Shown: positions 5,607-59,252 of the stretch, piece after piece
How the letters are laid out: each line of letters starts with the position of its first letter
How positions within the stretch are numbered: the first letter of the stretch is position 1
Position numbers and translations under genes: made by a program
Origin: an uncultured Spirochaetia bacterium
Lineage (GTDB): Bacteria > Oederibacteriota > PGYV01 > Palsa-1178
Reading direction: 5' to 3'
Assembly (NCBI GenBank): GCA_964565765.1
Contig: CAZMGF010000008.1
Coordinates: 4,910-68,909, forward strand
Length of the DNA stretch: 64,000 nt
The notes under the pieces: generated by a model
Told to the model about the DNA's origin: nothing
What the model saw: only the letters and a program-made list of their open reading frames with translations
The model's database searches: none

Positions 5607-5737
5607 TAAAGCGCGTTAAGCGCGCCGCAACAAACACGTCTGATCCAAATAAAATGTAAATACCAGCGCGCGCCGGGCAGCCTGTAAAAATATTTATAGC
5701 GCGTCTGCCGGATAAAAATTTCAGTGGGGGGGGGTTG

Positions 5738-7290: not shown

Positions 7291-9255
7291 CTATTTATAT
7301 ATCGTCGATTTTATCGTAAGCTCCACCCTGCGGTTTTTTTGACGGCCTTCTTCCGTTGCGTTATCCGCTATCGGAGAGAGTTCGCCGTAGCCCTCGGTGC
7401 GTATCCTGTTCTCGTCGTAGCCCAGAAGATTTACCATGAAAAACTTCACGGCATCGGCGCGCGCTTTTGATAATTCCTTATTGTCCTTATAGCGTATCCC
7501 ATGGGGCTGTATATTATCGGTATATCCGGCGACCAGTATGTCTGATTCGGGGTTTTTGTCTATTACGTCCTTCATTGTTTTTAAAACCGAATAAGCGGAT
7601 ATCTTGACGTTCGCCCGGCCGAGGTCAAAAAGCGCGTCGGATGAAAAGGTGAGTTTTATTTCCCTTAAAAGTATGACTATCGCCTGGGGCTTTGTCATGG
7701 CCTTATTGCCGACAGAATCGACAGTCATCAGGCTGTAATAATATAAATCGCCTGTCTGTACATATTTGTTGTTTATTCCCTTGCCGTCCCATATATATGA
7801 AATAGGCGGGTCGTTTTTTCCGGAGGCCGTAAAGAATAATTTTTTATTGTAATCCCATATTATGAACTGCCAGGAGGCGACTTTATTCCTGTCCTGCGCG
7901 TAAAATGAGAAAGTGGCGGGTATTATCAGGGAATCTTTTTCACCGGGCTTTAAAAGCTTCGGATCCGCGTCGATTGTCATTGTGGGCGGGGTGTTGTCTA
8001 TTTCCACGTTGACCCTGTTGGATTCAGAAGTCCCGTTGTCATATTCACATGTTATTGCGGCCTGGTATACACCGTCGGGCTGGACCTTACCGTTAATTTT
8101 TCCGTCCCAGACAATGGATTTTGAAAGTTTGTCAGCCACGGGAAGCGAGGCCAGGAGTTTTCCCGACGGGTCGAAAATATTAAGCTTAATGGACCGCAAC
8201 TGTTCGGGTGACTTTACCACGGGTATGAAATAAGCGTAATCAAGTATTTTGTCGTTGTTCGGCGAGAAGACAGGCGGCGTTACCTTAAGTTTTGCCGGAG
8301 GCGTGCCCCAGCCGTAAACAAGCGAGAGCCTGTTTGTAGGGCCCAGGTCCTCATAATTTACAAAAGCGTAATCAACCTCAAACCCTGACTTGCGGAAGCC
8401 GAGCCCGAAGGTGGGCTGGTCGAAGGCTCCGGTCATATAACCGAAGCGCAGGGCGAACATATCATAAAACCAGTATTCAAATCCTATTGAATAAAGAGGG
8501 TCATAATCAGGATTAATTTCAGCCTGCGCCGATATCAGAAGCGATCCGGACCACATTTTCATTTCGTCTGAAAGGCCGAAGTTTATAATACGCGGCGGGT
8601 CAAAGGCAATGTCCTGCATTTTAAGATCGGAACCCAGGTTTGTCATATCGGCGCCCAGGCGCAGGTAGTTCCCGTTTGATATTGTCTTGTAAAGGAGCCC
8701 CATATCAGTTGTGATGTTTGAGCCGCTGAACGTGTCAATATTTTGTGAAGTGTACTTGATTGTCGCGCCCGCAGAAAAATTTTCCTTGAAATCCAGCGCG
8801 TAGCCGGCTGTCACTTCATAATCGAAAGGTGCGAATTTCTGGTTGAACTGGGAAAAATCCACAGTTTCAAGAAAGGAGGGATCATAGGACTGAAGCGAAC
8901 CGGTTCTTGTCAGCTGATCTATCTGGAACCAGGCAAGGGCGACCCCGAACTTTCCTGTATCAGACCCCGGAACCGGCATGACCATGTCCAGATGCTCGTA
9001 GTTAATATTCTGGAACCAGTCAATATGCGTAAACTGGACCTCATAACCGGTTATTGAGGACATTCCAGCGGGATTATAGTAAAGGCCGTATGTGCCGTCT
9101 GATACGGCGGTAAAAGCCTCGCCCATCCCGACTGCGCGCGCGAACGGGGGAATTTTTGTAAAATTTTCGCTGGTTGTGCCGACAAGTTCAGCGCCGGCGC
9201 GGATAAACACAGCTGCAAAAACTGTTAAAAACAGAATGATCAGAATTCTTTTCAA
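7291..9255 (-). CDS. OmpA-family outer-membrane protein: N-terminal FadL/PorV-like beta-barrel, internal FlgD-Ig-like domain, C-terminal OmpA peptidoglycan-binding domain
   Basis: Signal peptide; AVGMGEAFTAVSD...YYNPAGM barrel motif; FSPNNDKILDYAYF...IFDPSGKLL...WDGK (FlgD-Ig); C-terminal ...ILVAGYTDNIQ...LSKARADAVKFFMV...NRRVEL (OmpA_C). The start codon is TTG. Confidence 0.7.
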   Translation of the reverse strand: MKRILIILFLTVFAAVFIRAGAELVGTTSENFTKIPPFARAVGMGEAFTAVSDGTYGLYYNPAGMSSITGYEVQFTHIDWFQNINYEHLDMVMPVPGSDTGKFGVALAWFQIDQLTRTGSLQSYDPSFLETVDFSQFNQKFAPFDYEVTAGYALDFKENFSAGATIKYTSQNIDTFSGSNITTDMGLLYKTISNGNYLRLGADMTNLGSDLKMQDIAFDPPRIINFGLSDEMKMWSGSLLISAQAEINPDYDPLYSIGFEYWFYDMFALRFGYMTGAFDQPTFGLGFRKSGFEVDYAFVNYEDLGPTNRLSLVYGWGTPPAKLKVTPPVFSPNNDKILDYAYFIPVVKSPEQLRSIKLNIFDPSGKLLASLPVADKLSKSIVWDGKINGKVQPDGVYQAAITCEYDNGTSESNRVNVEIDNTPPTMTIDADPKLLKPGEKDSLIIPATFSFYAQDRNKVASWQFIIWDYNKKLFFTASGKNDPPISYIWDGKGINNKYVQTGDLYYYSLMTVDSVGNKAMTKPQAIVILLREIKLTFSSDALFDLGRANVKISAYSVLKTMKDVIDKNPESDILVAGYTDNIQPHGIRYKDNKELSKARADAVKFFMVNLLGYDENRIRTEGYGELSPIADNATEEGRQKNRRVELTIKSTIYK

Positions 9256-26132: not shown

Positions 26133-26149
26133 GACAAGGAGAAAATAAA

Positions 26150-27751: not shown

Positions 27752-27787
27752 AAGTATGGATAATAAACGGGCAATACGGAGGGTTAA

Positions 27788-28714: not shown

Positions 28715-28781
28715 ATATTTTCAATAATCAATAATTATTGATTATTTTTTTTGCAAATCAGGCTCAAGAAGGCGGGACAAA

Positions 28782-29690: not shown

Positions 29691-29771
29691 AGAGCGTGAT
29701 AAGCAGAACTTGAACAAAGCAGTTTTTGTTTCTTTAAAAAATGATAAAAGAACACATACAGGAGTGAAATA

Positions 29772-32912: not shown

Positions 32913-32928
32913 GCCGTTTTAAATTTAT

Positions 32929-32957
32929 GGGGCGCGGGAAACCGCGCCTTTTTCTTA
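32929..32957 (+). terminator. rho-independent terminator
   Basis: ggcgcgg-gaaa-ccgcgcc stem-loop followed by tttttctt. Confidence 0.7.
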
Positions 32958-32976
32958 TATAACCCCTGAAAAAAAC

Positions 32977-33025
32977 TTGATTTATTACCGGATTAATTAT
33001 ATACTTAGCCTTGCCTAAATATTAA
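32977..33025 (+). promoter_or_regulatory. sigma-70-type promoter (TTGATT-N17-TATACT) with operator-like motif TTAGCCTTGCCTAAATATTAA
   Basis: Promoter hexamers at 32977-32982 and 33000-33005. The downstream motif shares TTAG..TTGCCTAA.TATTA with the first marR promoter region. Confidence 0.45.
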
Positions 33026-33051
33026 CCCTTACTAATGAAAAGGAGCCTGAT

Positions 33052-33513
33052 TTGGATAAAAAAAAGGAAGCAGAGGCCATATTCAACCACATAGTGGACA
33101 TAGTGCGCGCGGTCAGGTCAAATAAAAAGATAGAGATATTCCGCGGCGGAATGGAAAAACTTACTTTCGCGCAGATAGTCGCCTTATATTTTCTTTATGA
33201 TTCATCCGGCATGACAATGGGGGAACTATCAACATGCGCCAGCGTTAAAATGCCTACTATGACGGATATCATGTCAGCGCTTGTAACAGATGGTTATGCC
33301 GCAAGAAAACATTCCGAAAAAGACAGGCGCAAGGTAATTATGACCCTTACAGAAAAAGGAAAGAAGCTTGTTGAATATAACAGGGGCATCGGCATTGATT
33401 ATATTGAAAAGTTCATGTCCAATTTAAACCATGTGGAACGCGGGATAGCAAATGTGCTTGTGAAAAGGACAAAGGAAATCCTCACAAAAAGATTTGAGAA
33501 GGAGAAAAAATGA
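33052..33513 (+). CDS. MarR-family transcriptional regulator (second copy)
   Basis: ...FAQIVALYFLYDSSGMTMGELSTCASVKMPTMTDIMSALVTDGYAARKHSEKDRRKVIMTLTEKG... Confidence 0.85.
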   Translation: MDKKKEAEAIFNHIVDIVRAVRSNKKIEIFRGGMEKLTFAQIVALYFLYDSSGMTMGELSTCASVKMPTMTDIMSALVTDGYAARKHSEKDRRKVIMTLTEKGKKLVEYNRGIGIDYIEKFMSNLNHVERGIANVLVKRTKEILTKRFEKEKK

Positions 33514-34406
33514 AAATAGAATCCGTAAAAAAATGGGCCATGGCCGCGCTTGTTATATTTCTGGCCGCGGCTGTATTCTGGATAGTTGTGAAGCTGTTAA
33601 AATCCTCCGCAAAAGTGGAAGAGAAGGTGATAAAAGTTTCCGGCATCAGGGCGGAGTTGAAAGATATAAATGAGACTGTTGTAATTCAGGGAATTGCCGA
33701 AGGCGACCCCCAGATAAAAATATACCCGGCTGTTTCAGGAAAATTTGAGCGTGTGGCGGCAAAAGAAGGAAGTTCCGTAAAAAAAGACGACACTATACTT
33801 TTTATAGACCGCGATATCGTCGGCATGGATTTCCAGCTGGCACCCATAAAATCGCCGGTAAACGGTATTGTTACAAAAATTTATTACTCCGACAAAGGGG
33901 CCGCGGTTTCACCGCAGAACCCTGTGGCTGAAGTGGCCGACCCGGACAATGTGAAAGTCATCCTGCATACCGGGGAAGAGGAAATGGTAAAGGTAAAAAG
34001 CGGCATGTCCGCTGAAATAAAGCCGGTATATGGAGAAGCGGCGCCGGTAAAAGCTTCTGTATATTCCTGCACCCCTTTCATTGACACTGATACAATGTCC
34101 GGCACCATTATAGTAAAAGGAAGCAACCCCGGCCGCGGGATAAAACCCGGAATGTCGGTGGAGGTTACGATTAATACGGCAGTGAGGAAAAGCATAATGC
34201 TTCCTGAAAGCGCGGTTTTAATGGGCGAGGGCAAGGCATATGTTTATGTCAACGACAGCGGGAAAGCAAAGAGCGTTGATGTTGAGCTTGGATATATGGC
34301 GGGTGATGAGGTTGAGATAAAAAGCGGCATTACCGAAGGCGCGGACGTGGTTACCGATGGAAATTTTAAGTTGAGCGACGGCGCCAGAATCAGCGAAGAA
34401 AAATAA
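33510..34406 (+). CDS. RND efflux periplasmic adaptor, copy 3
   Basis: EGDPQIKIYPAVSGKFE...DTILFIDRD, the same architecture as 27788 and 28782. The start overlaps the marR stop. Confidence 0.7.
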   Translation: MKIESVKKWAMAALVIFLAAAVFWIVVKLLKSSAKVEEKVIKVSGIRAELKDINETVVIQGIAEGDPQIKIYPAVSGKFERVAAKEGSSVKKDDTILFIDRDIVGMDFQLAPIKSPVNGIVTKIYYSDKGAAVSPQNPVAEVADPDNVKVILHTGEEEMVKVKSGMSAEIKPVYGEAAPVKASVYSCTPFIDTDTMSGTIIVKGSNPGRGIKPGMSVEVTINTAVRKSIMLPESAVLMGEGKAYVYVNDSGKAKSVDVELGYMAGDEVEIKSGITEGADVVTDGNFKLSDGARISEEK

Positions 34407-34423
34407 GAGGAGCACTTTAAATC

Positions 34424-37400
34424 ATGAATATCGCGGAGATGGCAATAAAGCGCCCCATATTTGTCATAATGATAGTGGCGTCTATAATAACACTCGGGTT
34501 GATCGGTTATACCTCCATGGGCGTTGATATGCTGCCCGACATTGAATACCCGACAATATCAGTGACCACTGTTTATGCCGGAGCTTCCGCGGAAGAGATA
34601 GAAAATCTTGTTACAAAACCACTTGAGGACGCGCTTGCCGTTGTTGAGGGGCTCGACACACTTTCTTCCACATCTGATGAATCGGTTTCTGTAATAACCG
34701 CGAAATTTAACCTTGGCGCGGATGTTAAATACGCCGAGACAAGGGTGCGCGACGCCGTAAATAAGGCGAAATGGAAGCTGCCTGACGACGCCAAGGAGCC
34801 CTCTGTCGAGCGTTTTTCAGCCGCCGAATGGATACCGGTCATTGCCATGACAGTAAAGGGGAACCGGGATCTTGCGGGCCTAAAAGAAATAGTTGACGAC
34901 AGCATAAAACCTGAAATTGAAAAAATAAAAGGTGTCGGCAGGGTTGACCTGTGGGGCGGCCGCGACAGGGCGGTAAAAATAACAATAAACAAATCGGCTC
35001 TTTTCGCCAGGATGATATCATTTAATCAGGTAATAGAGGCAATCGACAGGGAAAACCTGAACATACCCGCGGGTTCCATTGAAAACACAAAAAGAAGCAT
35101 TGACGTCCGGGTAAAGGGAAGGTTTGACTCCATTCCTGAGATAGAGAATGTTTCAATGAAGGCCGCAAACGGCGCAATTGTCAGGATAAAGGATATAGCA
35201 AACGTAACTTTTGGTTTAAAGGATGAAGAACGGCGCACCAGGGTGGATGGTGAGAACGGCCTTATTTTCGGGGTATACAAACAGTCCGGTGAAAACAGCG
35301 TTGAAATAGCAAGGATAGTAAAAAGTAAAATGAAGGATATAAACGCGAAGCTGCCCCCGGGAATAAGGTTTGATGTATTCAGGGATCCGACACATTACGT
35401 CGAACAGTCCATAGAGGGGCTGCAGGGCGACATCCTGATAGGCGCGCTATGCGCCATAATCATAGTATGGCTCTTTCTCGGCTCATTCCGCTCAACTATT
35501 ATAACGGCAATTGCCCTTCCAAATTCTCTTCTTGGCGCCTTCTTTTTCATCAATGCCGCCGGATTTACAATTAATATGATGGTGCTTCTCGCCCTCTCGC
35601 TTTCAATAGGGTTATTAATAGATGATTCCATAGTTGTCCGTGAAAATATTTTCAGGTACATCGAAGGCGGTATGGACCCGAAAAAGGCGGCTGTAAAAGG
35701 GACAAACGAAGTCGCCCTTGCCGTCATCGCCACGACTGCCTCTATTATGGCCGTCTTCATACCGATATCATTCCTGCACGGCGTTGTGGGGCAATTTTTC
35801 AAGCAGTTCGGTTTTACAATAGCCTTTGCCCTTACAATTTCACTCATTGACGCCTTCACAACAGCTCCAATGCTTTCGGCCTACTGGTGGAAAAAAGAAG
35901 ACTCCGGGAAAAACACAAAAGGCGCATCATCGGTTTTTCATGCCATACATGAAAAATGGGAAGAAATTTATGAAGGCATAAAGGAAGTTTATACACAGCT
36001 ATTAAACTGGGCCCTTGACCATAAAAAAAGCGTGATATTCGGGACGCTCGGGCTTCTGGCCGTATCCGGGCTAGCTGTCATGTTCATAGGTGTGGCATTT
36101 ATGCCCGATTCCGATTACAGCGAGATAGAGTATACAATTGAATGCAGGCCGGACGCCACCATCGACGTTGTGGACGCAAAATTAAAAATGGTCGAGGCAT
36201 ATTTAAAGACCGTACCCGACATAGAGGAGTATTATGTTGTGGCAGGCGGTGAGGGAAGCAGGGGAACGGCAAGTAAAAACGTGGGCTCTATTTTCGCCAG
36301 GATAAAAAAAGGGGGCAGGAAATCCACGCCCGCAGGACTTGAGGAGTACAAAAAGATAAGCGCTATAATAGGAAAAGACGCCCTTTTAATCCTGCAGGAC
36401 AGCGGTTCCGGCCAGGTGCTGTCGGGCGGCGGCGATACATTCGCGATAACAATAAATATAACGGGTGATGATATAAAAGTTATTGATTCCATTGCGGACT
36501 CCATCAAGAAAGAGGCGGAAAAGACACCGGGTGTGGCCGACCTGGACACATCTTTCAGGCCGGGTAAGCCCGAGATATCTGTAAAGGTTGACAGGCTCAA
36601 GGCGTCAAAACTCGGCCTTTCCACATACGAAATAGGAGAGATTCTTAATATGCTCATTAATGGGAAGGAAATCGCCCAGTACAGGAAAGGCGAAAAGGAA
36701 TATCCGATAATAATGCAGCTTCCTGAAAATGAAAGGCAGGAGATAAATTCACTGAACGACATAATGCTCACAAACAGCGCGGGGTTGAAAATACCCCTTT
36801 CAGCCGTCGCCAGATTTGAGTTCGGCTCAGGGCCCGTTGAGATAAAAAGGGAAAATAAAAAGAGGATAGTCAAGGTTACCGGAAATGTCAGGGAAAAATA
36901 CTCACTTGGCGATGTTGTGAACGCCCTTAAAAAAAATATAAAGCAGAATGTAAAAATACCTTATGGATATGATTACAGCTTCGGCGGCCAGGCCTCACAG
37001 CTTAACGACACCATAACCGAGATGGGCACCGCCATGCTTCTGGCCCTGCTTTTTATGTATATGATACTTGCCTCGCTTTATAATTCCCTGGTGCAGCCGC
37101 TTATACTTATGATATCCGTGCCTCTGGCAATTATCGGGGCGTTCCTAGCCCTGCTTGTAACCGGGCAGCAGCTGGACCTGATGGCCATGATAGGTATTTT
37201 AATGGTGCTCGGCCTTGTGGCGAAGAACGGCATACTTTTGATAGATTTCACAAACCAGAAAATAGCGCAGGGGATGAGCGCAAGGGAAGCGCTGACACAC
37301 GCCGGCCCGATACGCTTAAGGCCGATTCTTATGACAACTTTTGCCATGATTTTCGGTATGCTGCCTCTCGCCTTTGGTTTTGGAGAATCGGTAATAATGG

Positions 37401-37537
37401 CAAAGACAATGCCGATTGCAGTAATAGGAGGGCTTCTTACATCCACATTCCTTACCCTGATTGTGATACCGGTTGTTTATGAGTGGGTTGAAAGAAGAAA
37501 AGTTAAAAAAGGCAAGGCTCTGAAATACAAAAAATAG
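34424..37537 (+). CDS. RND efflux transporter permease (second pump), 1037 aa
   Basis: Paralogous to 29772..32912 (SLSIGLLIDDSIVVRENIFRY, ISVPLAIIGAFLALLVTG). Confidence 0.9.
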   Translation: MNIAEMAIKRPIFVIMIVASIITLGLIGYTSMGVDMLPDIEYPTISVTTVYAGASAEEIENLVTKPLEDALAVVEGLDTLSSTSDESVSVITAKFNLGADVKYAETRVRDAVNKAKWKLPDDAKEPSVERFSAAEWIPVIAMTVKGNRDLAGLKEIVDDSIKPEIEKIKGVGRVDLWGGRDRAVKITINKSALFARMISFNQVIEAIDRENLNIPAGSIENTKRSIDVRVKGRFDSIPEIENVSMKAANGAIVRIKDIANVTFGLKDEERRTRVDGENGLIFGVYKQSGENSVEIARIVKSKMKDINAKLPPGIRFDVFRDPTHYVEQSIEGLQGDILIGALCAIIIVWLFLGSFRSTIITAIALPNSLLGAFFFINAAGFTINMMVLLALSLSIGLLIDDSIVVRENIFRYIEGGMDPKKAAVKGTNEVALAVIATTASIMAVFIPISFLHGVVGQFFKQFGFTIAFALTISLIDAFTTAPMLSAYWWKKEDSGKNTKGASSVFHAIHEKWEEIYEGIKEVYTQLLNWALDHKKSVIFGTLGLLAVSGLAVMFIGVAFMPDSDYSEIEYTIECRPDATIDVVDAKLKMVEAYLKTVPDIEEYYVVAGGEGSRGTASKNVGSIFARIKKGGRKSTPAGLEEYKKISAIIGKDALLILQDSGSGQVLSGGGDTFAITINITGDDIKVIDSIADSIKKEAEKTPGVADLDTSFRPGKPEISVKVDRLKASKLGLSTYEIGEILNMLINGKEIAQYRKGEKEYPIIMQLPENERQEINSLNDIMLTNSAGLKIPLSAVARFEFGSGPVEIKRENKKRIVKVTGNVREKYSLGDVVNALKKNIKQNVKIPYGYDYSFGGQASQLNDTITEMGTAMLLALLFMYMILASLYNSLVQPLILMISVPLAIIGAFLALLVTGQQLDLMAMIGILMVLGLVAKNGILLIDFTNQKIAQGMSAREALTHAGPIRLRPILMTTFAMIFGMLPLAFGFGESVIMAKTMPIAVIGGLLTSTFLTLIVIPVVYEWVERRKVKKGKALKYKK

Positions 37538-44074: not shown

Positions 44075-44103
44075 TTGACCGGTTATTGATTGTATGTTAT
44101 AAG
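44075..44103 (+). promoter_or_regulatory. sigma-70-type promoter (TTGACC-N17-TATAAG)
   Basis: Hexamers at 44075-44080 and 44098-44103. The leader carries a terminator-like hairpin at 44131-44158. Confidence 0.4.
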
Positions 44104-44173
44104 ATTGCAAAACACAATATATGGTATAAAACGCGGGGAGAAACGCGTAATTTTTTCTAAGGAGGAGGGTGGA

Positions 44174-44722
44174 ATGAAAAAAGTATTGATTTTGGCAGTG
44201 ATTGTTTTTGCTCTTGCTTTTTCGGCAATAGCGGCAACGGACGCAGTCGGGCAGAAACCGGAATGTGACAATGTGGTGAGCGCCAATGTCTGGCCCTATC
44301 TTGGGGCATTTTTCAATCTCGGTTATGAAAGGGATCTTGTGGCGAATCTGTCGGTAAGGGTAAGGGGCGAGTACTGGGGATTGAGCCAGGGCGGATTTAA
44401 TCTGGGCGGATATGGAATTGACCTGTTTTACCATCCGATGGGAAAAGGGCTTGACGGCTGGTATTTCGGGCCGAGGTTTGACCAGTGGATTGTTTCGTAT
44501 TCCGGCAATGGTACGACAGGCTCGGGTTCTTTGTACTGGGTAGGCGCGCAGGCGGGATACAGGTGGATATTTGACGGAGGATTTGAAATGGCGGTTTCAC
44601 TCGGAGCGCAGAAAAACATAGCGGCATCAATAACATACAATAATTCTACAACAAATGAGACGCCGCCGTTCAACGCGATGACGCTGCCGGTATTTGACTA
44701 CGACCTTGGATACGCGTTCTAA
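44174..44722 (+). CDS. small outer-membrane beta-barrel protein
   Basis: Strong SD ggaggagggtgg. Signal peptide MKKVLILAVIVFALAFSAIAA. Amphipathic beta-strands, with C-terminal ...DYDLGYAF ending in Phe. Confidence 0.55.
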   Translation: MKKVLILAVIVFALAFSAIAATDAVGQKPECDNVVSANVWPYLGAFFNLGYERDLVANLSVRVRGEYWGLSQGGFNLGGYGIDLFYHPMGKGLDGWYFGPRFDQWIVSYSGNGTTGSGSLYWVGAQAGYRWIFDGGFEMAVSLGAQKNIAASITYNNSTTNETPPFNAMTLPVFDYDLGYAF

Positions 44723-44760: not shown

Positions 44761-45033
44761 ATGACGAAATCGGAAATGATCCAGGCAATCTCGGACAAGG
44801 CAGGAGTTGCAAAGAAAGATGTTAAGAAAACGGTTGAGGCTTTCACGGAAGTTATCATCTCTACGCTCAAGAAAGAGAAAAAAGTAAAGCTCCCGGGGCT
44901 CGGAATCCTTGCGGTAAAGCACCGCAAAGCAAGGATGGGAAGGAACCCGCTTACAGGAGAGGCCATCTCAATCCCGGCAAAAAAAGTTGTAAAAATGAGG
45001 ATAGCAAAGGATCTGAAGGCGTCGGTCCTTTAA
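44761..45033 (+). CDS. hup: HU-family nucleoid-associated DNA-binding protein
   Basis: MTKSEMIQAISDKAGVAKKDVKKTVEAFTEVI...GLGILAVKHRKARMGRNPLTGEAISIPAKKVVKMRIAKDLK (90 aa). Confidence 0.9.
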   Translation: MTKSEMIQAISDKAGVAKKDVKKTVEAFTEVIISTLKKEKKVKLPGLGILAVKHRKARMGRNPLTGEAISIPAKKVVKMRIAKDLKASVL

Positions 45034-45085: not shown

Positions 45086-45233
45086 AAGACAAAAACTCAC
45101 AGAAACTTGATAGTAGAGAGGAGATTTCCTAGAAATAGGTGGATTTTTCATGTTTTTTGCATTAAAATTAAGGCATATGGCGCATTCAAACATTCATAAG
45201 GGAAATCTGAGAGCGTTTTACGCAGGGACAGCC

Positions 45234-47549
45234 ATGCTGATTATGTCTGTCCTTATATTTTTTTGCGCCCCGGCTTCCATATTTGCCGATGATACCGTAA
45301 AAAACGATATTTTAAGGTCTCCCGGCGCAAGGGCCGCGGGTATGGGCGGCGCTTTTACCGCAGTAGCCGACGATTACTCCGCATTTTTCTGGAATCCTGC
45401 CGGACTTGTTCTTGACAATCACATATCAGCCACCCTGCTCTATGATTCCATATTTACGAACAAAGAAAACAACGGCGGTTTTAATTACACCCTTCCGGTT
45501 TATGACAATTACACCGCGGCTTTTTCATATATAAAATCCACATATGATTCATCCGGCTATGAGGATGACACCCTATATTTTACCGGCGCGGCATGGCTTG
45601 ACGATGAAAAAAAATACGCCCTGGGCGGCAGCTTCAAGTTTATGAACACCAGCATTTCAAATTATAATGTCTACGGCAGGACCGGAAGCTTTGACCTGGG
45701 AGTAATGGTGTTTCCGGACATGCTGGAGAAAAAAATACGCTTTGGTTTTCTTGCGCAGGACCTGAACGCGGTTATGATGTGGAACAACGGCATCAATCAG
45801 AATATACCCTACCTTTTTAAAATGGGCTCAAGCTACACATTCGACCAGACGGCGGTTGTGGATATGGACATAAACCTGCTCCAGAGCGAAGCCAGCAGGT
45901 ATTACAGCAGAATGGGGCTCAATATAGGCGGAGAAAAATGGTTTATGAACAGGATTGTCGGCAACTTCGGTCTCAGGGCCGGATTTGCCTGGAGCGAGGC
46001 CTTTAATCCCGACTATAATTTTACCTTCGGCATGTCATACAGCAGGGAGGATTTTGAATTTGATTACACTTACGCCCCAGGAGTTGAAAGCCTGGGGGAA
46101 ACGCACAAGCTGAGTTTTACATACTATTTTGGTTCCAGGGAATCGCTTAAACAGGCGGAGCAGGTTACTTCAACGGCTCTGGAGACGGCGCAAAAATCCG
46201 TTACAATATCGGCTGCCGCTGATATGGCCCTTGTTGTGGAAAAATTCAAAAACATGGATATGTCAATTACTTCAAAATATTTTTCTCCGAATAATGACGG
46301 CGTTATGGACAGTGTTGATTATATTTTAAGAAACAACCCTCCTGACTCTAAAGGCATAGACTGGTCATTTACGGTTGCCAACTCCAAAGGAGAATCAATC
46401 AGGAATTTAAAGGGGACAGGCGCGCTGCCTGCTTTCTTTACCTGGCACGGCGACAACAACGACGGAATAACCCAGGCTGACGGGGATTATACCGCCACCC
46501 TTTCAGTGAATTACTCCGGCGCTGAAATATGGAAAAAATCAAGGGTGGTGACGCTCGATAACACCGCGCCGGCGTTTGATATGACGGTCTCGCCCAAGGT
46601 TTTTGCACCTTCAAAGAACAGCTCGGTCAAGGAGCTTTCAATCGACCTTAAGACAAAAGCCGAGGATATAAAATCCTGGCAGCTGGTAATTGTGGACGAC
46701 CAGAAACATTCAATCAGGAAAATGTCGGGCGACGGTTTTACCGCCAAGCTTTCATGGGGAGGCAAAGACGCGCTGGACAACCCAGTAAAGGACGGCAAGT
46801 ACTCCGCGGATATGACCATGTATGATTACGCGGGCAACAATTATTTTGTATCAGAGCCTTTCACCGTTGACACCAGGGTAGCTGAGATAAAGATAAAGGC
46901 GGATCCGAAAGCATTCGTTCCGGCAAAGGGAAAAACGTCATTTACGGTTGATTTCTCGGAGCCCCAGCTTGTAAAGTCATTTGATTTTGAGATACTGGGA
47001 GCGGATAAGAAACCGTTAAAAGTCTTTGCCGGCAGGACCGCGGCTTCAAAAAAGATTGTATGGGACACAGGCGGCGAAAAACCATCGCCGGTAAGGCAGG
47101 GGGCCGCGTTCACATACAGGGTAACAGTTCAGCAGAAGAACGGTATGAAAAACACGGAAGAAGGAATAATACAGACCGCGCTGCCTGAATTCAAGGACGC
47201 GGGTATTGAACTTACTCTGGCGGCCATTGATTTTGCCGCGGGAGATTCAACCGTGCCCGCTGACGAGAACAGCAGCTTAAACCAGGCCACTGAAGCGGTG
47301 AAAAAATACGCCAAAGAATATTATCTTTATGTAAAGGGATATTCCACCGATGCCGGAGGTCCGGATGCTGATATTAAATTATCAATCGCGCGCGCTGAAG
47401 CGGTCCGCGATTATCTGGTGGAGGCCGGCGTGCCGGAATCCAACATTTACGTGGCAGGTTACGGCGACTGCACCTATGGCGGAAACCTTTCAAAAGCAGA
47501 GCTTGCAAAGGCCGGAAAAAGGGTCGAAGTGGAACTGCTGACGAAGTAG
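45234..47549 (+). CDS. OmpA-family outer-membrane protein: FadL/PorV-like beta-barrel, FlgD-Ig-like domains, C-terminal OmpA domain (paralog of 7291..9255)
   Basis: Signal peptide MLIMSVLIFFCAPASIFA begins at ATG 45234 (SD aggga); the tracked start 45150 is upstream. AAGMGGAFTAVADDYSAFFWNPAGL barrel motif. FSPNNDGVMDSVDY (FlgD-Ig). C-terminal ...LYVKGYSTDAGG...LSIARAEAVRDYLVEAGV...RVEVEL (OmpA_C). Confidence 0.7.
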   Translation: MLIMSVLIFFCAPASIFADDTVKNDILRSPGARAAGMGGAFTAVADDYSAFFWNPAGLVLDNHISATLLYDSIFTNKENNGGFNYTLPVYDNYTAAFSYIKSTYDSSGYEDDTLYFTGAAWLDDEKKYALGGSFKFMNTSISNYNVYGRTGSFDLGVMVFPDMLEKKIRFGFLAQDLNAVMMWNNGINQNIPYLFKMGSSYTFDQTAVVDMDINLLQSEASRYYSRMGLNIGGEKWFMNRIVGNFGLRAGFAWSEAFNPDYNFTFGMSYSREDFEFDYTYAPGVESLGETHKLSFTYYFGSRESLKQAEQVTSTALETAQKSVTISAAADMALVVEKFKNMDMSITSKYFSPNNDGVMDSVDYILRNNPPDSKGIDWSFTVANSKGESIRNLKGTGALPAFFTWHGDNNDGITQADGDYTATLSVNYSGAEIWKKSRVVTLDNTAPAFDMTVSPKVFAPSKNSSVKELSIDLKTKAEDIKSWQLVIVDDQKHSIRKMSGDGFTAKLSWGGKDALDNPVKDGKYSADMTMYDYAGNNYFVSEPFTVDTRVAEIKIKADPKAFVPAKGKTSFTVDFSEPQLVKSFDFEILGADKKPLKVFAGRTAASKKIVWDTGGEKPSPVRQGAAFTYRVTVQQKNGMKNTEEGIIQTALPEFKDAGIELTLAAIDFAAGDSTVPADENSSLNQATEAVKKYAKEYYLYVKGYSTDAGGPDADIKLSIARAEAVRDYLVEAGVPESNIYVAGYGDCTYGGNLSKAELAKAGKRVEVELLTK

Positions 47550-57091: not shown

Positions 57092-57463
57092 ATGAGGCTG
57101 AAATTGATATCAATAGATGAAAAACAGCTGAAAGATTACTTGGTGCTTGTCCAGAAAATAAAGAGCATTCCGCCCGATAAAACCTCTGATATGGCCGGAA
57201 AAATATCAAGAATAAGGGGAAGGGCCGGAAAGAACGCCATTTACCGCAGTCTTATAGAATCCAATTTAAAGAATGTGGTTCATGTGGCCTCGAAATACAG
57301 GGGGGCCGGAGTGACATTTGCCGCTCTTATTGCCGCCGGCAACAGGGCATTGATAGCGGGCATAAAGGGATTTGAACCTGAAAAAGGCGAAAATTTTAGC
57401 GAAGCCATAAACTGGCAGATCGAAGGCGCGGTAATGGACTGTGTTGTTGAGGCTAAAAAATAG
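57092..57463 (+). CDS. 123-aa protein homologous to sigma-70 regions 1.2-2.2 only (truncated sigma / putative sigma mimic)
   Basis: LIESNLKNVVHVASKYRGAGVTFAALIAAGNRALIAGIKGFEPEKGENFSEAINWQIEGAV aligns with sigma-70 [61 protein letters not shown]. The upstream IPPDKTSDMAGKI resembles region 1.2 (LTREGEIDIAKRI). The protein stops after region 2.2, with no regions 2.3/2.4/3/4. Confidence 0.6.
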   Translation: MRLKLISIDEKQLKDYLVLVQKIKSIPPDKTSDMAGKISRIRGRAGKNAIYRSLIESNLKNVVHVASKYRGAGVTFAALIAAGNRALIAGIKGFEPEKGENFSEAINWQIEGAVMDCVVEAKK

Positions 57464-57506
57464 GCCGGCCGCATGGCCGGCATTTGAAAAACAGGAGATG
57501 GTAAAA

Positions 57507-59252
57507 ATGAAAAAAAGAATTATTTCGGCGCTCATACTGATGCTGGCAGTGGCGGCTTTTAGTTATTCTGCAACAGGAACAGCGGTTATAAGCCCTGCTT
57601 ATCTCGCGCCGTCAGCATACCGTCCTACTATCACCATAACTTATAAAACCGCCGGCGTTACAATGGTTGCGGGCGCGGTGGAGTTGCAGATAAATTCAGC
57701 CTTTCCGCTTCCAACCACAGTAACCACAAGCGCCGGCGCTATAACAGCGGTCATAATGATTAACGGAACCACCCCCACTGACGTGCCGCAGTCTGATATA
57801 ACCATTAACGGATATACCGTTACGATAAATTCATTAAACATACAGCCGGTTGATTCACTGATTATAACCTACACCGGGGCAGGAACAGGCGAATTTGTCG
57901 GGCCGGCGGCAACCGGCGCGTATCCTTTTAATGTATCCGAGGAAATTTCATCAACCGACCTTAATTTTACAGGCCTTGGTTCCCAGCCGGTTATTTATGT
58001 CACAAATATGGTAATTACCAAAACAACAGAAAGCAGCCTTATAGAGGCGGGCAATACAGTTACATATGTAATTTCGTATCAAAGCAATGAAGCGAATATG
58101 AATTCTGTTTCAATAACGGACTCAATGCCTCAGGGGCTTTTGATACAAAGCGCGCAGCCGTCTTCGAGCAGTTATAGCGGCAATATATATACATGGAACA
58201 TTGGAAGCGTTGCTACAGCAGGCAGTTTGTCAAGCATCACAATAACGGCTGTGGCGCAAGCCGGGATTGCGGCATACGGCTTTACCTCGACCAATTACGC
58301 CACTATTTCAGCCAACAGCAGCATAACAGGATCAAATGGAATGGCTGTTTCAAGCACAGTAAACGTCAGCGGAGCGGTTCTTACATCTTCAATTACAGCT
58401 TCACCCGATTCTGTTGTATCAGGCGGGCAGATTACTGTTGTCATGAATGTAAGCAATTCCGGAAACTATGGGGCGTCAAGCGTCGCTCCATCGACACTTT
58501 CATTATCCGGCACCACAGTGGCGACATTGCTAAGCGGACCCGTACCTTCATCTGTTTCAGGTATTGAACCCAACGCATCGGCTTCTTTTACGTGGATATA
58601 TACGGCAAATAATCCTGGAATGACAAATTTTACGGGTTACTCCAGGGGATATGACAACGGGCAAGTATTGTCTTCAGGAACCGCTGTTAGCGGCAATATT
58701 TCGGTATTAAACCCGACCCCGACATTTACATTCACCTTAACAAGCACACCCACTCCGCAGAATACAAATACTTCAACCGGAACATTTACACCTGTGCCGC
58801 CGACGGACACGCCGACCCCTCAATATACAAACACTCCCGCTGTCACAAATACACCGGCAGTTACCGATACACCGGCGGGGACCGCGACCACGGTTCCGGG
58901 CCAGACAAGTTCTCCGACAGCGGTTTCAACGGCCCCGCTTACAACGCCGACGCAGGTTCCAACAATTACTGTAAAAGCCGTAACCGACAGAAATTATATT
59001 AATCTCAGCAACGGCGACAGGGCCGCTATTATTTACAAAGTTGAAAGCGACGGCGACAGCTGGATAGATATATATAATCTCAGCGGCGAGCTTGTAAAGC
59101 ATTATGTAAGAGAGCCGCTTGCCGCCGGACAGCATACAGTTTACTGGGACGGATCAAACGATGACGGCAAAAAAGTCGGGCAGGGAATGTATTTTATAGT
59201 AATACACCAGCCGGGCGGGGTAACAACAAAGAAACTTATTGTAATAAAATAG
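57507..59252 (+). CDS. secreted DUF11-repeat surface protein with long TP linker and T9SS-type C-terminal sorting domain
   Basis: SD aggag 9 nt before ATG 57507 (signal peptide MKKRIISALILMLAVAAFS; tracked start 57441 is upstream). DUF11-like ITKTTESSLIEAGNTVTYVISYQSN. Linker TPTPQNTNTSTGTFTPVPPTDTPTPQYTNTPAVTNTPAVTDTP. CTD ...IYNLSGELVKHYVRE...VYWDGSNDDGKKVGQGMYFIVIHQ...KKLIVIK. Confidence 0.7.
   Translation: MKKRIISALILMLAVAAFSYSATGTAVISPAYLAPSAYRPTITITYKTAGVTMVAGAVELQINSAFPLPTTVTTSAGAITAVIMINGTTPTDVPQSDITINGYTVTINSLNIQPVDSLIITYTGAGTGEFVGPAATGAYPFNVSEEISSTDLNFTGLGSQPVIYVTNMVITKTTESSLIEAGNTVTYVISYQSNEANMNSVSITDSMPQGLLIQSAQPSSSSYSGNIYTWNIGSVATAGSLSSITITAVAQAGIAAYGFTSTNYATISANSSITGSNGMAVSSTVNVSGAVLTSSITASPDSVVSGGQITVVMNVSNSGNYGASSVAPSTLSLSGTTVATLLSGPVPSSVSGIEPNASASFTWIYTANNPGMTNFTGYSRGYDNGQVLSSGTAVSGNISVLNPTPTFTFTLTSTPTPQNTNTSTGTFTPVPPTDTPTPQYTNTPAVTNTPAVTDTPAGTATTVPGQTSSPTAVSTAPLTTPTQVPTITVKAVTDRNYINLSNGDRAAIIYKVESDGDSWIDIYNLSGELVKHYVREPLAAGQHTVYWDGSNDDGKKVGQGMYFIVIHQPGGVTTKKLIVIK

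What the first reader, a model, noticed from the sequence alone, without database searches (positions are those of the whole stretch)
45234..47549. Paralogous OmpA-anchored FadL/PorV-like beta-barrel proteins with internal FlgD-Ig domains
7291..9255 (654 aa) and 45234..47549 (772 aa) share a tripartite architecture. They have an N-terminal barrel with the G-M-G-G/E-A-F-T-A-V-(A/S)-D...(F/Y)(W/Y)NPAG(L/M) motif, as in FadL/PorV-type channels. They have one to three FlgD-Ig-like modules starting FSPNNDG/K. They end in an OmpA peptidoglycan-binding domain. PorV-type barrels shuttle CTD cargo. Fusing one to Ig modules and an OmpA anchor is not a standard arrangement. It may represent a cargo-tethering or cell-wall-coupled secretion or attachment component.
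Basis: partly seen in the sequence, partly recalled or inferred. Interest (0 to 1): 0.6.

Follow-up and report, generated by a model that had tools for sequence, protein, structure and literature searches.

The report
Cell-wall-anchored FadL/PorV-type outer membrane barrels
Two paralogous genes in this uncultured FCPU426/Goldbacteria-like bacterium each encode an outer-membrane barrel of the FadL/PorV/PorQ kind joined through periplasmic Ig-like spacers to an OmpA-type cell-wall-binding domain. They most likely tether the outer membrane to the cell wall; the layout is real and unstudied experimentally, but it is a variation on known themes.

Summary
ORF A (45177/45234..47549, +) and ORF B (7291..9255, minus strand) are paralogues (BLASTP E=2e-22). 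Both have a signal peptide, an N-terminal hatch with the NPA motif, a compact barrel, tandem Ig-like modules (three in A, two in B) and an OmpA_C domain that keeps the Asp/Arg peptidoglycan-binding pair. The A barrel models with 14 strands (AF2 pLDDT 89); its top 23 solved-structure matches are all FadL-family, and PorV gives the best TM-score.

The organism is candidate division FCPU426/Goldiibacteriota, not FCB. I found no T9SS component in the window or in any neighbourhood examined. An even-stranded barrel puts the Ig modules and OmpA_C in the periplasm, so the Ig modules cannot hold external cargo.

Relatives attach SPOR, LysM or OmpA_C behind the same barrel, and one MAG encodes the barrel and an Ig+OmpA protein as adjacent genes. 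My best reading is an OmpA-like outer membrane-to-peptidoglycan tether, comparable to a covalent PorP-PorE pair. A role as a docking site for CTD-bearing surface proteins is not excluded: the window holds three candidates. Public databases already label the family "PorV/PorQ family" or "OmpA family". I rate it a new variant of a known kind, of moderate interest.

The parts
45177..45287 (+).
   Evidence: The N-termini of orthologues P0001-P0004 (MAHSNI[HN]KGK...) match the 45177 start. AF2 places a hydrophobic helix at residues 2-21. The cleavage site is inferred from the sequence.
45306..45419 (+). ORF A hatch/plug segment (aa 25-62) with GARAAGMGGAFTAVADDYSAFFWNPAGL, including the FadL-type NPA motif
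   Evidence: This is the most conserved part of the protein: 77% mean identity among 36 orthologues. N54 and P55 are invariant. NPA is the FadL-family hatch motif (PMC8407342; FadL NPA mutants appear among the PDB hits).
45420..46136 (+). ORF A 14-stranded beta-barrel (aa 63-301), compact, with inter-strand loops of 2-9 residues
   Evidence: AF2 barrel-only model: pLDDT 89, pTM 0.81, 14 strands. The top 23 Foldseek PDB hits are all FadL family (TbuX 9.4e-11). PorV 8gl6_F gives the best TM (0.63/0.59). A profile search hits PorV 6h3i_F at E=1.4e-8. NF033709 scores 70.9 bits.
46137..46256 (+). ORF A helical linker (aa 302-341), poorly conserved; ORF B has no equivalent
   Evidence: AF2 predicts a helix at 302-338. 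It has the lowest conservation of any segment, 26%. In the BLASTP alignment B has a gap here.
46257..47189 (+). ORF A: three tandem Ig-like (FlgD_ig/Big-type) beta-sandwich modules (aa 342-446, 447-550, 551-652), inferred to be periplasmic spacers
   Evidence: Pfam FlgD_ig scores 36.9 bits and Big_13 matches weakly. NF053608 (Lsa66_OmpA) covers aa 341-634. AF2 pLDDT is mostly 85-95. The modules are related to each other. Foldseek matches tandem Ig/FnIII chains.
47190..47549 (+). ORF A OmpA_C peptidoglycan-binding domain (aa 653-771) and stop codon
   Evidence: Pfam OmpA scores 50.9 bits. The profile matches PDB OmpA-like domains at E down to 8e-21. The alignment to 7bba and YiaD shows the TD Asp (D706) and the RA Arg (R720) conserved. 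It is the second most conserved segment, 59%.
8314..9255 (-). ORF B signal peptide (aa 1-22) and PorV/PorQ-family barrel with hatch (aa 27-314)
   Evidence: NF033709 scores 140.3 bits over profile positions 1-324 of 326 and passes the cutoff of 90. PorQ 62.1, PorV2 59.4 and PorV 55.8 bits all fall below their cutoffs. A local barrel HMM scores 217 bits.
7660..8292 (-). ORF B: two tandem Ig-like modules (aa 322-443, 449-532); the first starts VFSPNNDK
   Evidence: The local Ig HMM finds two domains. Pfam CHU_C (24.7 bits) and FlgD_ig (21.9 bits) are both just below cutoff. The modules align with those of A.
7291..7656 (-). ORF B OmpA_C peptidoglycan-binding domain (aa 534-650) and C-terminus
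   Evidence: Pfam OmpA scores 61.5 bits over the full profile, 1-98. The canonical GYTD...NKELSKARA motif is present.

Best explanation
ORF A and ORF B are outer-membrane proteins that attach the outer membrane non-covalently to peptidoglycan. They are functional analogues of OmpA/OprF built on a different barrel.

Shown by the analyses:
- Each has a Sec signal peptide and a compact FadL-superfamily barrel of the PorV/PorQ family (14 strands in the model of A), plugged by a highly conserved N-terminal hatch carrying the NPA motif.
- Tandem Ig-like modules follow (three plus a helical linker in A, two in B).
- Each ends in an OmpA_C domain that retains the Asp/Arg pair used by OmpA-like domains to bind the diaminopimelate of peptidoglycan.

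Inferred:
- Outer-membrane barrels have an even number of strands and both termini in the periplasm, so everything after the barrel is periplasmic.
- The Ig modules act as a semi-rigid spacer that spans the gap from outer membrane to cell wall. That would be roughly 8 nm for B and 12-17 nm for A, assuming about 4 nm per Ig module.
- The OmpA_C domain grips the wall.

The two paralogues of different reach are both conserved across FCPU426/Goldiibacteriota. The plugged barrel may have a second job, either uptake of hydrophobic molecules or docking of surface proteins, but nothing here demonstrates one.
For: Architecture and fold.

PG-binding residues are conserved (D706 and R720 nearly invariant; alignment to solved OmpA-like domains; B motif GYTD...LSKARA).

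Conservation among 36 orthologues fits an anchor-spacer-anchor design: hatch 77% > OmpA_C 59% > Ig2 52% ~ barrel 50% > Ig1 42% > Ig3 36% > linker 26%.

The wall-binding module is interchangeable. Relatives with the same barrel end in:
- OmpA_C directly (P0047, 453 aa);
- Ig + SPOR (P0048);
- LysM (P0060);
- OmpA_C + TPR (P0053).

Split form: in L081 a PorV/PorQ-family barrel gene (107.6 bits) is immediately followed by a gene for a 947-aa protein ending in Ig + OmpA_C.

Neighbourhoods are not conserved between distant orthologues and are housekeeping in character (met genes/uvrB; recF/grpE-dnaJ; dnaA). This fits a stand-alone envelope protein.

A-type and B-type genes lie on the same contig about 36-50 kb apart, both in the window and in an FCPU426 MAG.

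Precedents:
- PorE bridges peptidoglycan to the 14-stranded barrel PorP (PMC9143113).
- OmpM is both tether and channel (PMC10628300).
- A published survey of outer-membrane tethers counts any barrel plus OmpA domain as OmpA (10.1101/2021.05.31.446380).
- T. pallidum FadL-like barrels carry periplasmic C-terminal extensions (PMC8407342).
Against: There is no experimental evidence of any kind; everything rests on sequence and models.

Inter-domain geometry is uncertain: the full-length model has pTM 0.43.

The hatch is the most conserved part of the protein, more so than a passive anchor would seem to need. That hints at a further activity of the barrel.

The Ig2 module (52%) is more conserved than a pure spacer should be.

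The far more numerous barrel-less Ig-string + OmpA_C proteins have a plain signal peptide and mostly no lipobox. The Ig-OmpA cassette therefore also works without an outer-membrane anchor, so its role may go beyond tethering.

I could not census the genome for Pal, Lpp, canonical OmpA or OmpM, so I cannot say whether another tether is present.
Confidence: 0.6

Rival explanations
1. Wall-anchored docking barrel for CTD-bearing surface proteins. The barrel would behave like PorQ or PorP, holding the C-terminal sorting domain of a secreted protein at the cell surface, while the fused Ig-OmpA_C tail plays the part of PorE by fixing the complex to peptidoglycan. This can coexist with a tether role.
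For: - Membership of the PorV/PorQ family at subfamily level; PorV gives the best TM-score.
- The window encodes three large DUF11 proteins ending in a FlgD_ig/Por_Secre_tail-like domain. TIGR04183 scores 25.4 and 26.3 bits, above the cutoff of 23, for 57441-59252 and 59607-62417, and 20.1 for 21834-24554.
- Elsewhere, barrels of this family sit beside CTD proteins. A 125-aa protein that is little more than a signal peptide and a TIGR04183 domain (40.3 bits) lies 10 bp upstream of the barrel-Ig-OmpA gene P0154 in L087/L088. Similar pairs occur in L015, L027 and L062.
- Literature: PorQ-PorZ and PorP-PG1035-PorE complexes (10.1101/2020.05.13.094771; PMC9143113).
Against: - No SprA/Sov, PorK/L/M/N or PorU homologue was seen in the window or in any neighbourhood.
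- Scores against the PorV, PorQ and PorV2 equivalog models are far below cutoff.
- The modelled extracellular loops are only 2-9 residues. The long PorV loop that enters SprA has no counterpart.
- The candidate cargo genes are not adjacent to ORF A or B.
- PorV/PorQ-family barrels also occur in Brachyspira, where the authors propose a FadL-like transport role and report no T9SS (10.1101/2025.01.03.631275).
- The adjacency cases number 5 of 88 loci.
Confidence: 0.2
2. Primarily a FadL-type uptake channel for hydrophobic compounds (fatty acids, aromatics) that happens to be wall-anchored. The periplasmic Ig chain would then hand substrates on, or position the channel.
For: - The top 23 structural matches are FadL, TbuX, TodX and CymD.
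- The NPA hatch motif is invariant, and the hatch is the most conserved segment.
- T. pallidum FadL-like proteins with periplasmic C-terminal extensions have been proposed to pass cargo to periplasmic partners (PMC8407342).
Against: - Pfam Toluene_X does not match A or B, even at E<=1.
- The barrel is about 240 residues with minimal loops, so it lacks the extracellular loop regions present in the larger FadL and PorV barrels (367-444 residues in the solved chains; loop lengths).
- Several FadL-fold proteins are not transporters (PorV, PorQ, PorP/SprF, BamG; PMC12611786).
- No fatty-acid or aromatic catabolic genes lie nearby.
Confidence: 0.12
3. Flagellar accessory structure: an outer-membrane and peptidoglycan-anchored ring or stator scaffold, by analogy with MotY or FlgT. 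The suggestion comes from the FlgD-type Ig fold and the MotB-like OmpA_C domain.
For: - JGI annotates several orthologues as 'flagellar motor protein MotB'.
- aroA plus flagellar rod or MS-ring genes lie 1-5 kb downstream of barrel-Ig-OmpA genes in two unrelated contigs, L085 and L091.
Against: - The MotB label reflects only the shared OmpA_C domain.
- No flagellar genes lie near ORF A or B in the window, L001, L003, L089 or L090.
- The FlgD_ig fold is widespread in non-flagellar proteins.
Confidence: 0.04
4. Surface adhesin, as reported for Leptospira Lsa66, with the Ig modules exposed and binding an external ligand.
For: The Ig-OmpA part matches NF053608 (fibronectin-binding adhesin Lsa66) at 62.8 bits for A, and at 92-308 bits for relatives. 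Lsa66 was described as binding extracellular matrix and plasminogen (PMC3130794).
Against: - 62.8 bits is far below the equivalog cutoff of 700.
- The Ig modules lie between a barrel whose C-terminus is periplasmic and a peptidoglycan-binding domain, so surface exposure is topologically implausible.
- The source is an environmental, free-living lineage.
Confidence: 0.03

Closest known systems
PorP-PorE (and PorP/SprF-like + PorE-like gene pairs) of the Bacteroidota type IX secretion system
   Same: A 14-stranded FadL-like outer-membrane barrel is linked to peptidoglycan through a periplasmic chain that contains an Ig-like fold and ends in an OmpA_C domain (PMC9143113, PMC7192894). An adjacent-gene form of the barrel and the Ig+OmpA protein exists among relatives (L081).
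   Different: Here the link is covalent, within one polypeptide. There are no TPR or beta-propeller domains. The barrel matches the PorV/PorQ family (NF033709), and Pfam PorP_SprF did not match A or B. The lineage is outside FCB, and no other T9SS gene was seen.
PorV / PorQ (NCBIfam NF033709 PorV/PorQ family; NF033710, NF033711)
   Same: Homologous compact barrel with an N-terminal plug. B passes the subfamily cutoff (140.3 against 90). The profile hits PorV 6h3i_F at E=1.4e-8, and PorV gives the best TM-score.
   Different: Both proteins fall far below the equivalog cutoffs for PorV, PorQ and PorV2. Their loops are very short. They carry a 330-470-residue periplasmic tail that PorV and PorQ lack. 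No T9SS context was found.
FadL/TodX/TbuX hydrophobic-compound channels and the spirochaetal UPF0164 FadL-like proteins (T. pallidum TP0548, TP0859, TP0865)
   Same: 14-stranded barrel with an N-terminal hatch and NPA motif. The treponemal members also carry a periplasmic C-terminal extension (PMC8407342). Pfam UPF0164 matches weakly.
   Different: No significant match to Pfam Toluene_X. The barrel is about 240 residues, far smaller than FadL/TodX. The extension is Ig + OmpA_C rather than helical TPR.
OmpA / OprF / OmpM-type outer-membrane tethers
   Same: An outer-membrane barrel plus a periplasmic peptidoglycan-binding domain in one chain. The OmpA_C domain has the Asp/Arg pair. It would count as 'OmpA' under the barrel + PF00691 definition used in 10.1101/2021.05.31.446380.
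   Different: The barrel is a plugged 14-stranded FadL-type barrel, not the 8-stranded OmpA barrel (PF01389 was not matched). A 200-350-residue Ig spacer replaces the short Pro-rich hinge.
Lsa66-like tandem-Ig + OmpA_C proteins of spirochaetes (NF053608; Leptospira LIC10258; ~1050-aa Treponema proteins)
   Same: The Ig-Ig-OmpA_C cassette is homologous (A: 62.8 bits; P0170: 307.9 bits). 116 of the 150 best representative clusters have this cassette.
   Different: Those proteins have no barrel. After the signal peptide the Ig string starts directly, and few have a lipobox. A and B are the minority form with an N-terminal barrel (12 of 150).

Membership tests
FadL superfamily of 14-stranded outer-membrane barrels | 14 antiparallel strands forming a monomeric barrel | tested here: met
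   AF2 barrel-only model with pLDDT 89 and pTM 0.81. DSSP gives 14 strands between residues 63 and 301. The top 23 Foldseek PDB hits are all FadL/TodX/TbuX/CymD/PorV. This was modelled for ORF A only; for B it is inferred from homology.
FadL superfamily of 14-stranded outer-membrane barrels | N-terminal hatch/plug with a conserved NPA motif | tested here: met
   WNPAG in A and YNPAG in B. N54 and P55 are invariant and A56 and G57 are >=90% conserved in the alignments.
FadL superfamily of 14-stranded outer-membrane barrels | Lateral opening created by a kink in a barrel strand; transport of hydrophobic substrates | not testable with these tools
   Model coordinates could not be inspected and there is no assay. 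Pfam Toluene_X gave no match for A or B, even at E<=1.
PorV/PorQ family (NCBIfam NF033709, subfamily level) | Score at or above the curated cutoff of 90 bits | tested here: met
   ORF B scores 140.3 bits over profile positions 1-324 of 326 and passes. ORF A scores 70.9 bits (E=1.4e-19) and does not pass on its own, but it is a clear paralogue of B. So the criterion is met for B and borderline for A.
T9SS PorV (NF033710), PorQ (NF033711), PorV2 (NF052325) as orthologues | Score above the equivalog cutoffs (250 / 220 / 325 bits) | tested here: not met
   B scores 55.8, 62.1 and 59.4 bits. A scores 27.8 (PorQ) and 30.0 (PorV2), with PorV absent from the 25 best of 34 families shown.
T9SS PorV (NF033710), PorQ (NF033711), PorV2 (NF052325) as orthologues | Co-occurrence with the T9SS core (SprA/Sov, PorK/L/M/N, PorU/PorZ) | tested here: inconclusive
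   None was found in the 64-kb window or within 8-10 kb of seven homologues. The whole genome could not be searched.
T9SS PorV (NF033710), PorQ (NF033711), PorV2 (NF052325) as orthologues | Long extracellular loops that bind the cargo CTD and reach into SprA (PorV) | tested here: not met
   All inter-strand loops in the model of A are 2-9 residues. The barrel is about 240 residues, against 367-402 for the solved PorV chains.
OmpA-like peptidoglycan-binding domain (Pfam PF00691) | Domain match above the gathering score, with the conserved Asp (TD) and Arg (RA) residues that bind peptidoglycan | tested here: met
   A scores 50.9 bits and B 61.5 bits against a cutoff of 27.2. D706 and R720 are nearly invariant. 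The alignments to 7bba and YiaD show both residues. B has GYTD...LSKARA. The role of the Asp/Arg pair is taken from established knowledge of OmpA-like domains.
Classical OmpA (8-stranded barrel + OmpA_C) | N-terminal 8-stranded OmpA barrel (PF01389) | tested here: not met
   No PF01389 match. The barrel has 14 strands.
Lsa66 (NF053608, equivalog) | Score above 700 bits and full-length architecture without a barrel | tested here: not met
   A scores 62.8 bits, covering only the Ig region (profile positions 19-340 of 581).
FlgD Ig-like domain (PF13860) | Domain match above the gathering score of 27 bits and a beta-sandwich fold | tested here: met
   A scores 36.9 bits with two stretches. B scores 21.9 bits, below cutoff, with CHU_C at 24.7 also below. 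AF2 shows three beta-sandwich modules in A at high confidence. So the criterion is met for A; for B it rests on homology.

The most novel reading that the evidence does not exclude
In FCPU426/Goldiibacteriota and a few other non-FCB candidate lineages, compact PorV/PorQ-type barrels fused to an Ig-OmpA_C tail are wall-anchored docking stations. They would hold proteins carrying FlgD_ig/Por_Secre_tail-type C-terminal domains on the cell surface. That makes them a single-chain equivalent of PorQ/PorP plus PorE, working in organisms where I found no canonical type IX secretion genes. If so, the CTD-and-barrel anchoring module would be older and more widespread than the T9SS itself.
Probability: 0.15. 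Interest if true: 0.75.

Novelty: new variant of a known kind. Interest (0 to 1): 0.4.

Why it matters
How bacteria outside the well-studied phyla hold their outer membrane to the cell wall is an open question. Surveys so far recognise Lpp, Pal, OmpA and OmpM (10.1101/2021.05.31.446380).

These proteins would add a fifth design, in which a plugged FadL/PorV-type barrel is tied to peptidoglycan by an Ig-domain rod. The wall-binding end is interchangeable among relatives (OmpA_C, SPOR, LysM). Two versions of different length are kept side by side throughout a candidate phylum.

They also provide a natural fusion that supports the PorP-PorE 'barrel bridged to the wall' model from type IX secretion. 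They show too that PorV/PorQ-family barrels are common in lineages where I found no T9SS context, so the automatic label 'PorV/PorQ family protein' should not be read as evidence for a T9SS.

Tried and rejected
1. Operon context. I looked for T9SS or other functionally informative neighbours around ORF A, ORF B and seven homologues. Close relatives are syntenic, but distant ones have unrelated housekeeping neighbours. No functional operon emerged.

2. Fold searches.
- With the full-length model, tandem-Ig proteins such as complement C3 and gp130 swamped the results and said nothing about the barrel. I re-modelled the barrel alone.

3. Representative search. The whole-protein profile search of 1.84 billion representatives was dominated by barrel-less multi-Ig + OmpA proteins. 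It sized the Ig-OmpA cassette family but not the barrel family.

4. Literature.
- Searches for the fused architecture and for T9SS in Goldbacteria found no description of it. The Goldbacteria genome paper mentions type IX secretion only in its reference list.
- A search for T9SS distribution outside Bacteroidetes returned nothing.

5. Cluster look-up gave almost no taxon names.

6. Rfam found no RNA families in the window.

7. The promoter and terminator scan around ORF A was uninformative.

8. Readings I rejected:
- The adhesin (Lsa66-like) reading, on topology.
- The MotB/flagellar labels, as artefacts of the shared OmpA_C domain, though I note two cases of flagellar genes nearby.


Full report
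**What is there**

- ORF A is open from 45150 to 47549 on the + strand.
- ORF B runs 7291..9255 on the minus strand.
- Orthologues of A begin MAHSNI[HN]KGK..., which matches an ATG at 45177 and gives 790 aa. Residue numbers below count from 45234.
- The two proteins are paralogues: 24% identity over 595 aligned columns, E=2e-22, with a second alignment through the Ig and OmpA parts at E=1e-12.
- A local HMM built from the barrel finds only these two barrels in the 64-kb window. The same holds for the OmpA_C domain.

**Domains**

*HMM matches*
- Pfam finds OmpA in both proteins (50.9 and 61.5 bits; cutoff 27.2).
- FlgD_ig passes in A (36.9 bits) and falls just short in B (21.9, with CHU_C at 24.7).
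- UPF0164, the treponemal FadL-like family, matches both weakly.
- NCBIfam places the N-terminal ~300 residues in NF033709, the PorV/PorQ family. B scores 140.3 bits over the whole profile (cutoff 90). A scores 70.9 bits, E=1.4e-19.
- Neither protein comes near the equivalog cutoffs for PorV, PorQ or PorV2.
- A profile of 41 family members hits the solved PorV chain 6h3i_F at E=1.4e-8, and many OmpA-like domains at E down to 8e-21.

*Structure models*
- AlphaFold2 with that alignment gives a confident full-length model of A (mean pLDDT 83.6). Inter-domain confidence is low (pTM 0.43).
- The model shows a signal helix, a hatch at ~25-62, 14 strands at 63-301, a helix at 302-338, three beta-sandwiches at ~342-446, 447-550 and 551-652, and an OmpA_C domain at 653-771.
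- The barrel modelled alone reaches pLDDT 89 and pTM 0.81, again with 14 strands.
- Its 23 best Foldseek matches in the PDB are all FadL-family channels (TbuX 9.4e-11, FadL, TodX, CymD). PorV (8gl6_F) has the best TM-score: 0.63/0.59, rmsd 5.2 Å. The FadL-like BamG chains of Bacteroidota BAM complexes follow.

*Barrel details*
- The invariant WNPAG/YNPAG is the NPA hatch motif of the FadL family (PMC8407342).
- The barrel is unusually compact. Every inter-strand loop in the model is 2-9 residues.

*Ig modules and OmpA_C*
- The Ig modules are related to each other. B has two; A has three plus a ~40-residue linker that B lacks.
- The OmpA_C domains keep the Asp of the TD motif and the Arg of the RA motif. 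Those are D706 and R720 in A, nearly invariant in the family. B reads GYTD...LSKARA.

**Whose genome it is**

- ORF B is 100% identical to a protein listed from NCBI and ENA sources, with a longest contig of 71,562 bp (P0074).
- The nearest species-representative genomes carrying ORF A orthologues are labelled 'uncultured Spirochaetia bacterium' (79%), 'candidate division FCPU426 bacterium' (74% and 51%) and 'Candidatus Goldiibacteriota bacterium' (38-39%).
- FCPU426 and Goldiibacteriota are candidate phyla outside the FCB group. The 16S cluster FCPU426 has been equated with Goldbacteria (PMC7031533).

**How common the architecture is**

- Full-length orthologues of A form 36 clusters at 90% identity (36-90% identical to A). 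Those of B form about 77 clusters (35-100%).
- NCBI names them 'OmpA family protein' or 'PorV/PorQ family protein'. JGI names them 'OmpA-like peptidoglycan-associated protein' or 'MotB'.
- A-type and B-type genes co-occur. They lie ~36 kb apart in the window and ~50 kb apart on the 1.2-Mb contig of an FCPU426 MAG.
- Among 88 fetched loci, 14 barrel genes have barrel+Ig+OmpA, 6 have barrel+Ig and 75 are barrel-only. The barrel-only genes are spread over Elusimicrobia, Zixibacteria, Ignavibacteria, Eisenbacteria, Acidobacteriota and others.
- A profile search of 1.84 billion representatives shows that the Ig-Ig-OmpA_C cassette is far more common without a barrel. Of the 150 best representatives, 116 are 530-2250-aa proteins with multiple Ig units and a C-terminal OmpA_C. 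Only 12 have the barrel.
- The barrel-less proteins match the Leptospira Lsa66 model. After a plain signal peptide they start directly with an Ig module.

**Evidence on function**

1. *Topology.* Outer-membrane barrels have an even number of strands and both termini in the periplasm (established knowledge). With 14 strands, the linker, the Ig modules and OmpA_C are periplasmic. That is where an OmpA_C domain must be to reach peptidoglycan.

2. *Interchangeable wall-binding modules.* Relatives with the same barrel end in different modules:
   - OmpA_C directly (P0047, 453 aa);
   - Ig + SPOR (P0048);
   - LysM (P0060);
   - OmpA_C + TPR (P0053);
   - TPR (L011, L012, L036);
   - fn3 (L009).
   
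   Three unrelated peptidoglycan-binding domains on one scaffold argues that wall attachment is the selected property.

3. *A split form.* In L081 a PorV/PorQ-family barrel gene (107.6 bits) is directly followed by a gene for a 947-aa protein ending in Ig + OmpA_C.

4. *Conservation profile.* Hatch 77%, OmpA_C 59%, Ig2 52%, barrel 50%, Ig1 42%, Ig3 36%, linker 26%. The two ends are constrained and the connecting parts are freer.

5. *Context.* Close relatives share the window's synteny: metY-cysK-metX-metW, a small ORF, HU, gene A, a TPR protein, uvrB. Goldiibacteriota orthologues instead sit between recF and grpE-dnaJ, and B-type genes sit beside dnaA, dus or aroA. These look like stand-alone envelope genes.

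6. *No T9SS.* I found no T9SS component in the window.

**Most likely mechanism**

- The barrel sits in the outer membrane and is plugged by its hatch.
- The Ig modules form a periplasmic rod. That would be roughly 8 nm for B and 12-17 nm for A if each module spans about 4 nm and the linker is partly helical. These lengths are inferred, not measured.
- OmpA_C binds peptidoglycan non-covalently.
- This makes the proteins functional analogues of OmpA/OprF, and of OmpM in combining a barrel with a tether (PMC10628300). They are also single-chain counterparts of the PorP-PorE bridge, in which a 14-stranded barrel is linked to the wall by a periplasmic protein with an Ig-like CRD and an OmpA_C domain (PMC9143113, PMC7192894).
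- I put this at about 0.6.

**What stays open**

- The hatch is the best-conserved segment, which suggests the barrel does more than anchor.
- One possibility is FadL-like passage of hydrophobic molecules. The structural neighbours and the NPA motif favour it. Against it are the lack of a Toluene_X match, the minimal loops, and the existence of non-transporting FadL folds such as PorV, PorQ, PorP and BamG (PMC12611786).
- The more interesting possibility is docking of CTD-bearing proteins.
  - The window encodes three DUF11 proteins ending in a FlgD_ig/Por_Secre_tail-like domain. Two exceed the TIGR04183 cutoff.
  - In L087/L088 a 125-aa protein, essentially signal peptide plus TIGR04183 domain (40.3 bits), lies 10 bp upstream of a barrel-Ig-OmpA gene.
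  - CTD proteins also abut barrel genes in L015, L027 and L062.
  - This recalls PorQ-PorZ and PorP-PG1035 (10.1101/2020.05.13.094771; PMC9143113).
- Against docking:
  - I saw no translocon or sortase.
  - The equivalog scores are low and the loops are short.
  - In the window the candidate cargo genes are not next to A or B.
  - A PorV/PorQ-family barrel also occurs in Brachyspira, where the authors propose a FadL-like transport role and report no T9SS (10.1101/2025.01.03.631275).
- Flagellar and adhesin readings are weak (see the rival explanations).

**Verdict**

- The functional gloss (cargo shuttle or tether, FCB context) is not supported as stated, because the Ig modules are periplasmic.
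- The family already exists in public databases under generic names. I found no paper describing it.
- It is best classed as a new variant of known kinds: an OmpA-type tether, or a fused PorP-PorE-like bridge, in a poorly known candidate phylum.
- Interest is moderate. It would rise if a role in docking CTD proteins outside canonical T9SS lineages were shown.

Noticed in passing
window 21834-24554 (+), 57441-59252 (+), 59607-62417 (+): Three large secreted-looking proteins with DUF11 repeats and a C-terminal FlgD_ig/Por_Secre_tail-like domain. TIGR04183 scores 20.1, 25.4 and 26.3 bits against a cutoff of 23, and CHU_C matches in the third. They are candidate CTD-sorted surface proteins in a non-FCB genome with no T9SS gene in the window.
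   Followed up: partly
L081 2578-3720 and 3814-6654 (JAUVLC010000064.1, MAG labelled Clostridia bacterium): A 'split' version of the fusion. A PorV/PorQ-family barrel gene (NF033709, 107.6 bits) is immediately followed by a gene for a 947-aa protein ending in an Ig-like module and OmpA_C (PorE-like OmpA match, 54.5 bits).
   Followed up: partly
L087 and L088 1530-1904, upstream of 1917-3908 (P0154): A 125-aa protein that is essentially a signal peptide plus a T9SS type A sorting domain (TIGR04183, 40.3 bits). It lies 10 bp upstream of a barrel-Ig-OmpA gene, and a PASTA-domain protein follows. This recalls the PG1035-PorP-PorE trio.
   Followed up: partly
L015 1-2631/2621-3496 (Caldiserica MAG); L062 5839-6900/7276-9729 (KSB1 MAG); L027 203-1402/1294-2328: Proteins with a C-terminal FlgD_ig/Por_Secre_tail-like domain are encoded directly beside barrel-only PorV/PorQ-family genes in several candidate phyla. 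The arrangement resembles the cargo/PorP-SprF gene pairs of Bacteroidota.
   Followed up: partly
L085 10673-17950 (Goldiibacteriota); L091 15101-19399: In two unrelated contigs, aroA followed by flagellar rod/MS-ring genes (flgB-flgC-fliE-fliF-fliG in one; flgF-flgG-flgA-flgI in the other) lies 1-5 kb downstream of a barrel-Ig-OmpA gene. This is not seen in the window or in three other contexts.
   Followed up: partly
proteins P0205-P0350, e.g. P0170, P0038, P0218: A very large family of 1000-4000-aa proteins made of 4-26 copies of the same Ig unit, most ending in OmpA_C, with no barrel and mostly no lipobox. They would be periplasmic, wall-anchored Ig strings related to Leptospira Lsa66, which is annotated as a surface adhesin.
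   Followed up: partly
L020 2646-4121 (Marinifilum sp. MAG, Bacteroidota); also L024, L029, L030, L037: PorV/UPF0164-type barrels that end in a single Ig/CHU_C-like domain with no wall-binding module. That puts a CTD-like fold on the periplasmic end of a barrel.
   Followed up: no
window 44090-44722 (+) and 44761-45033 (+): A 210-aa Gly/Tyr-rich ORF with a signal peptide that ends in Phe and matches no family. It could be a small outer-membrane barrel. An HU-type DNA-binding protein gene follows. Both lie directly upstream of ORF A and are syntenic in the FCPU426 MAG locus L001.
   Followed up: partly
window 26114-37537 (+) and 5735-7153 (+): Two tandem RND efflux systems: an OEP, three periplasmic adaptor genes (27788-28714, 28782-29690, 33510-34406) and two AcrB-like pumps of 1046 and 1037 aa. 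A separate TolC-like OEP gene converges on ORF B.
   Followed up: no
window 16536-17204 (-) and 17228-19876 (-): A prepilin-type N-terminal methylation motif protein lies beside an 882-aa protein with CarboxypepD_reg domains and a weak ComGE-like N-terminus. These may be components of a type IV pilus or type II secretion pseudopilus.
   Followed up: no
L003/L007/L008, ~2.5 kb upstream of the A-type gene (e.g. L003 3746-5398): Goldiibacteriota encode a 550-aa protein that combines TolB/Tricorn-like beta-propeller repeats with a C-terminal OmpA domain. This is another unusual OmpA_C fusion close to the A-type gene.
   Followed up: no
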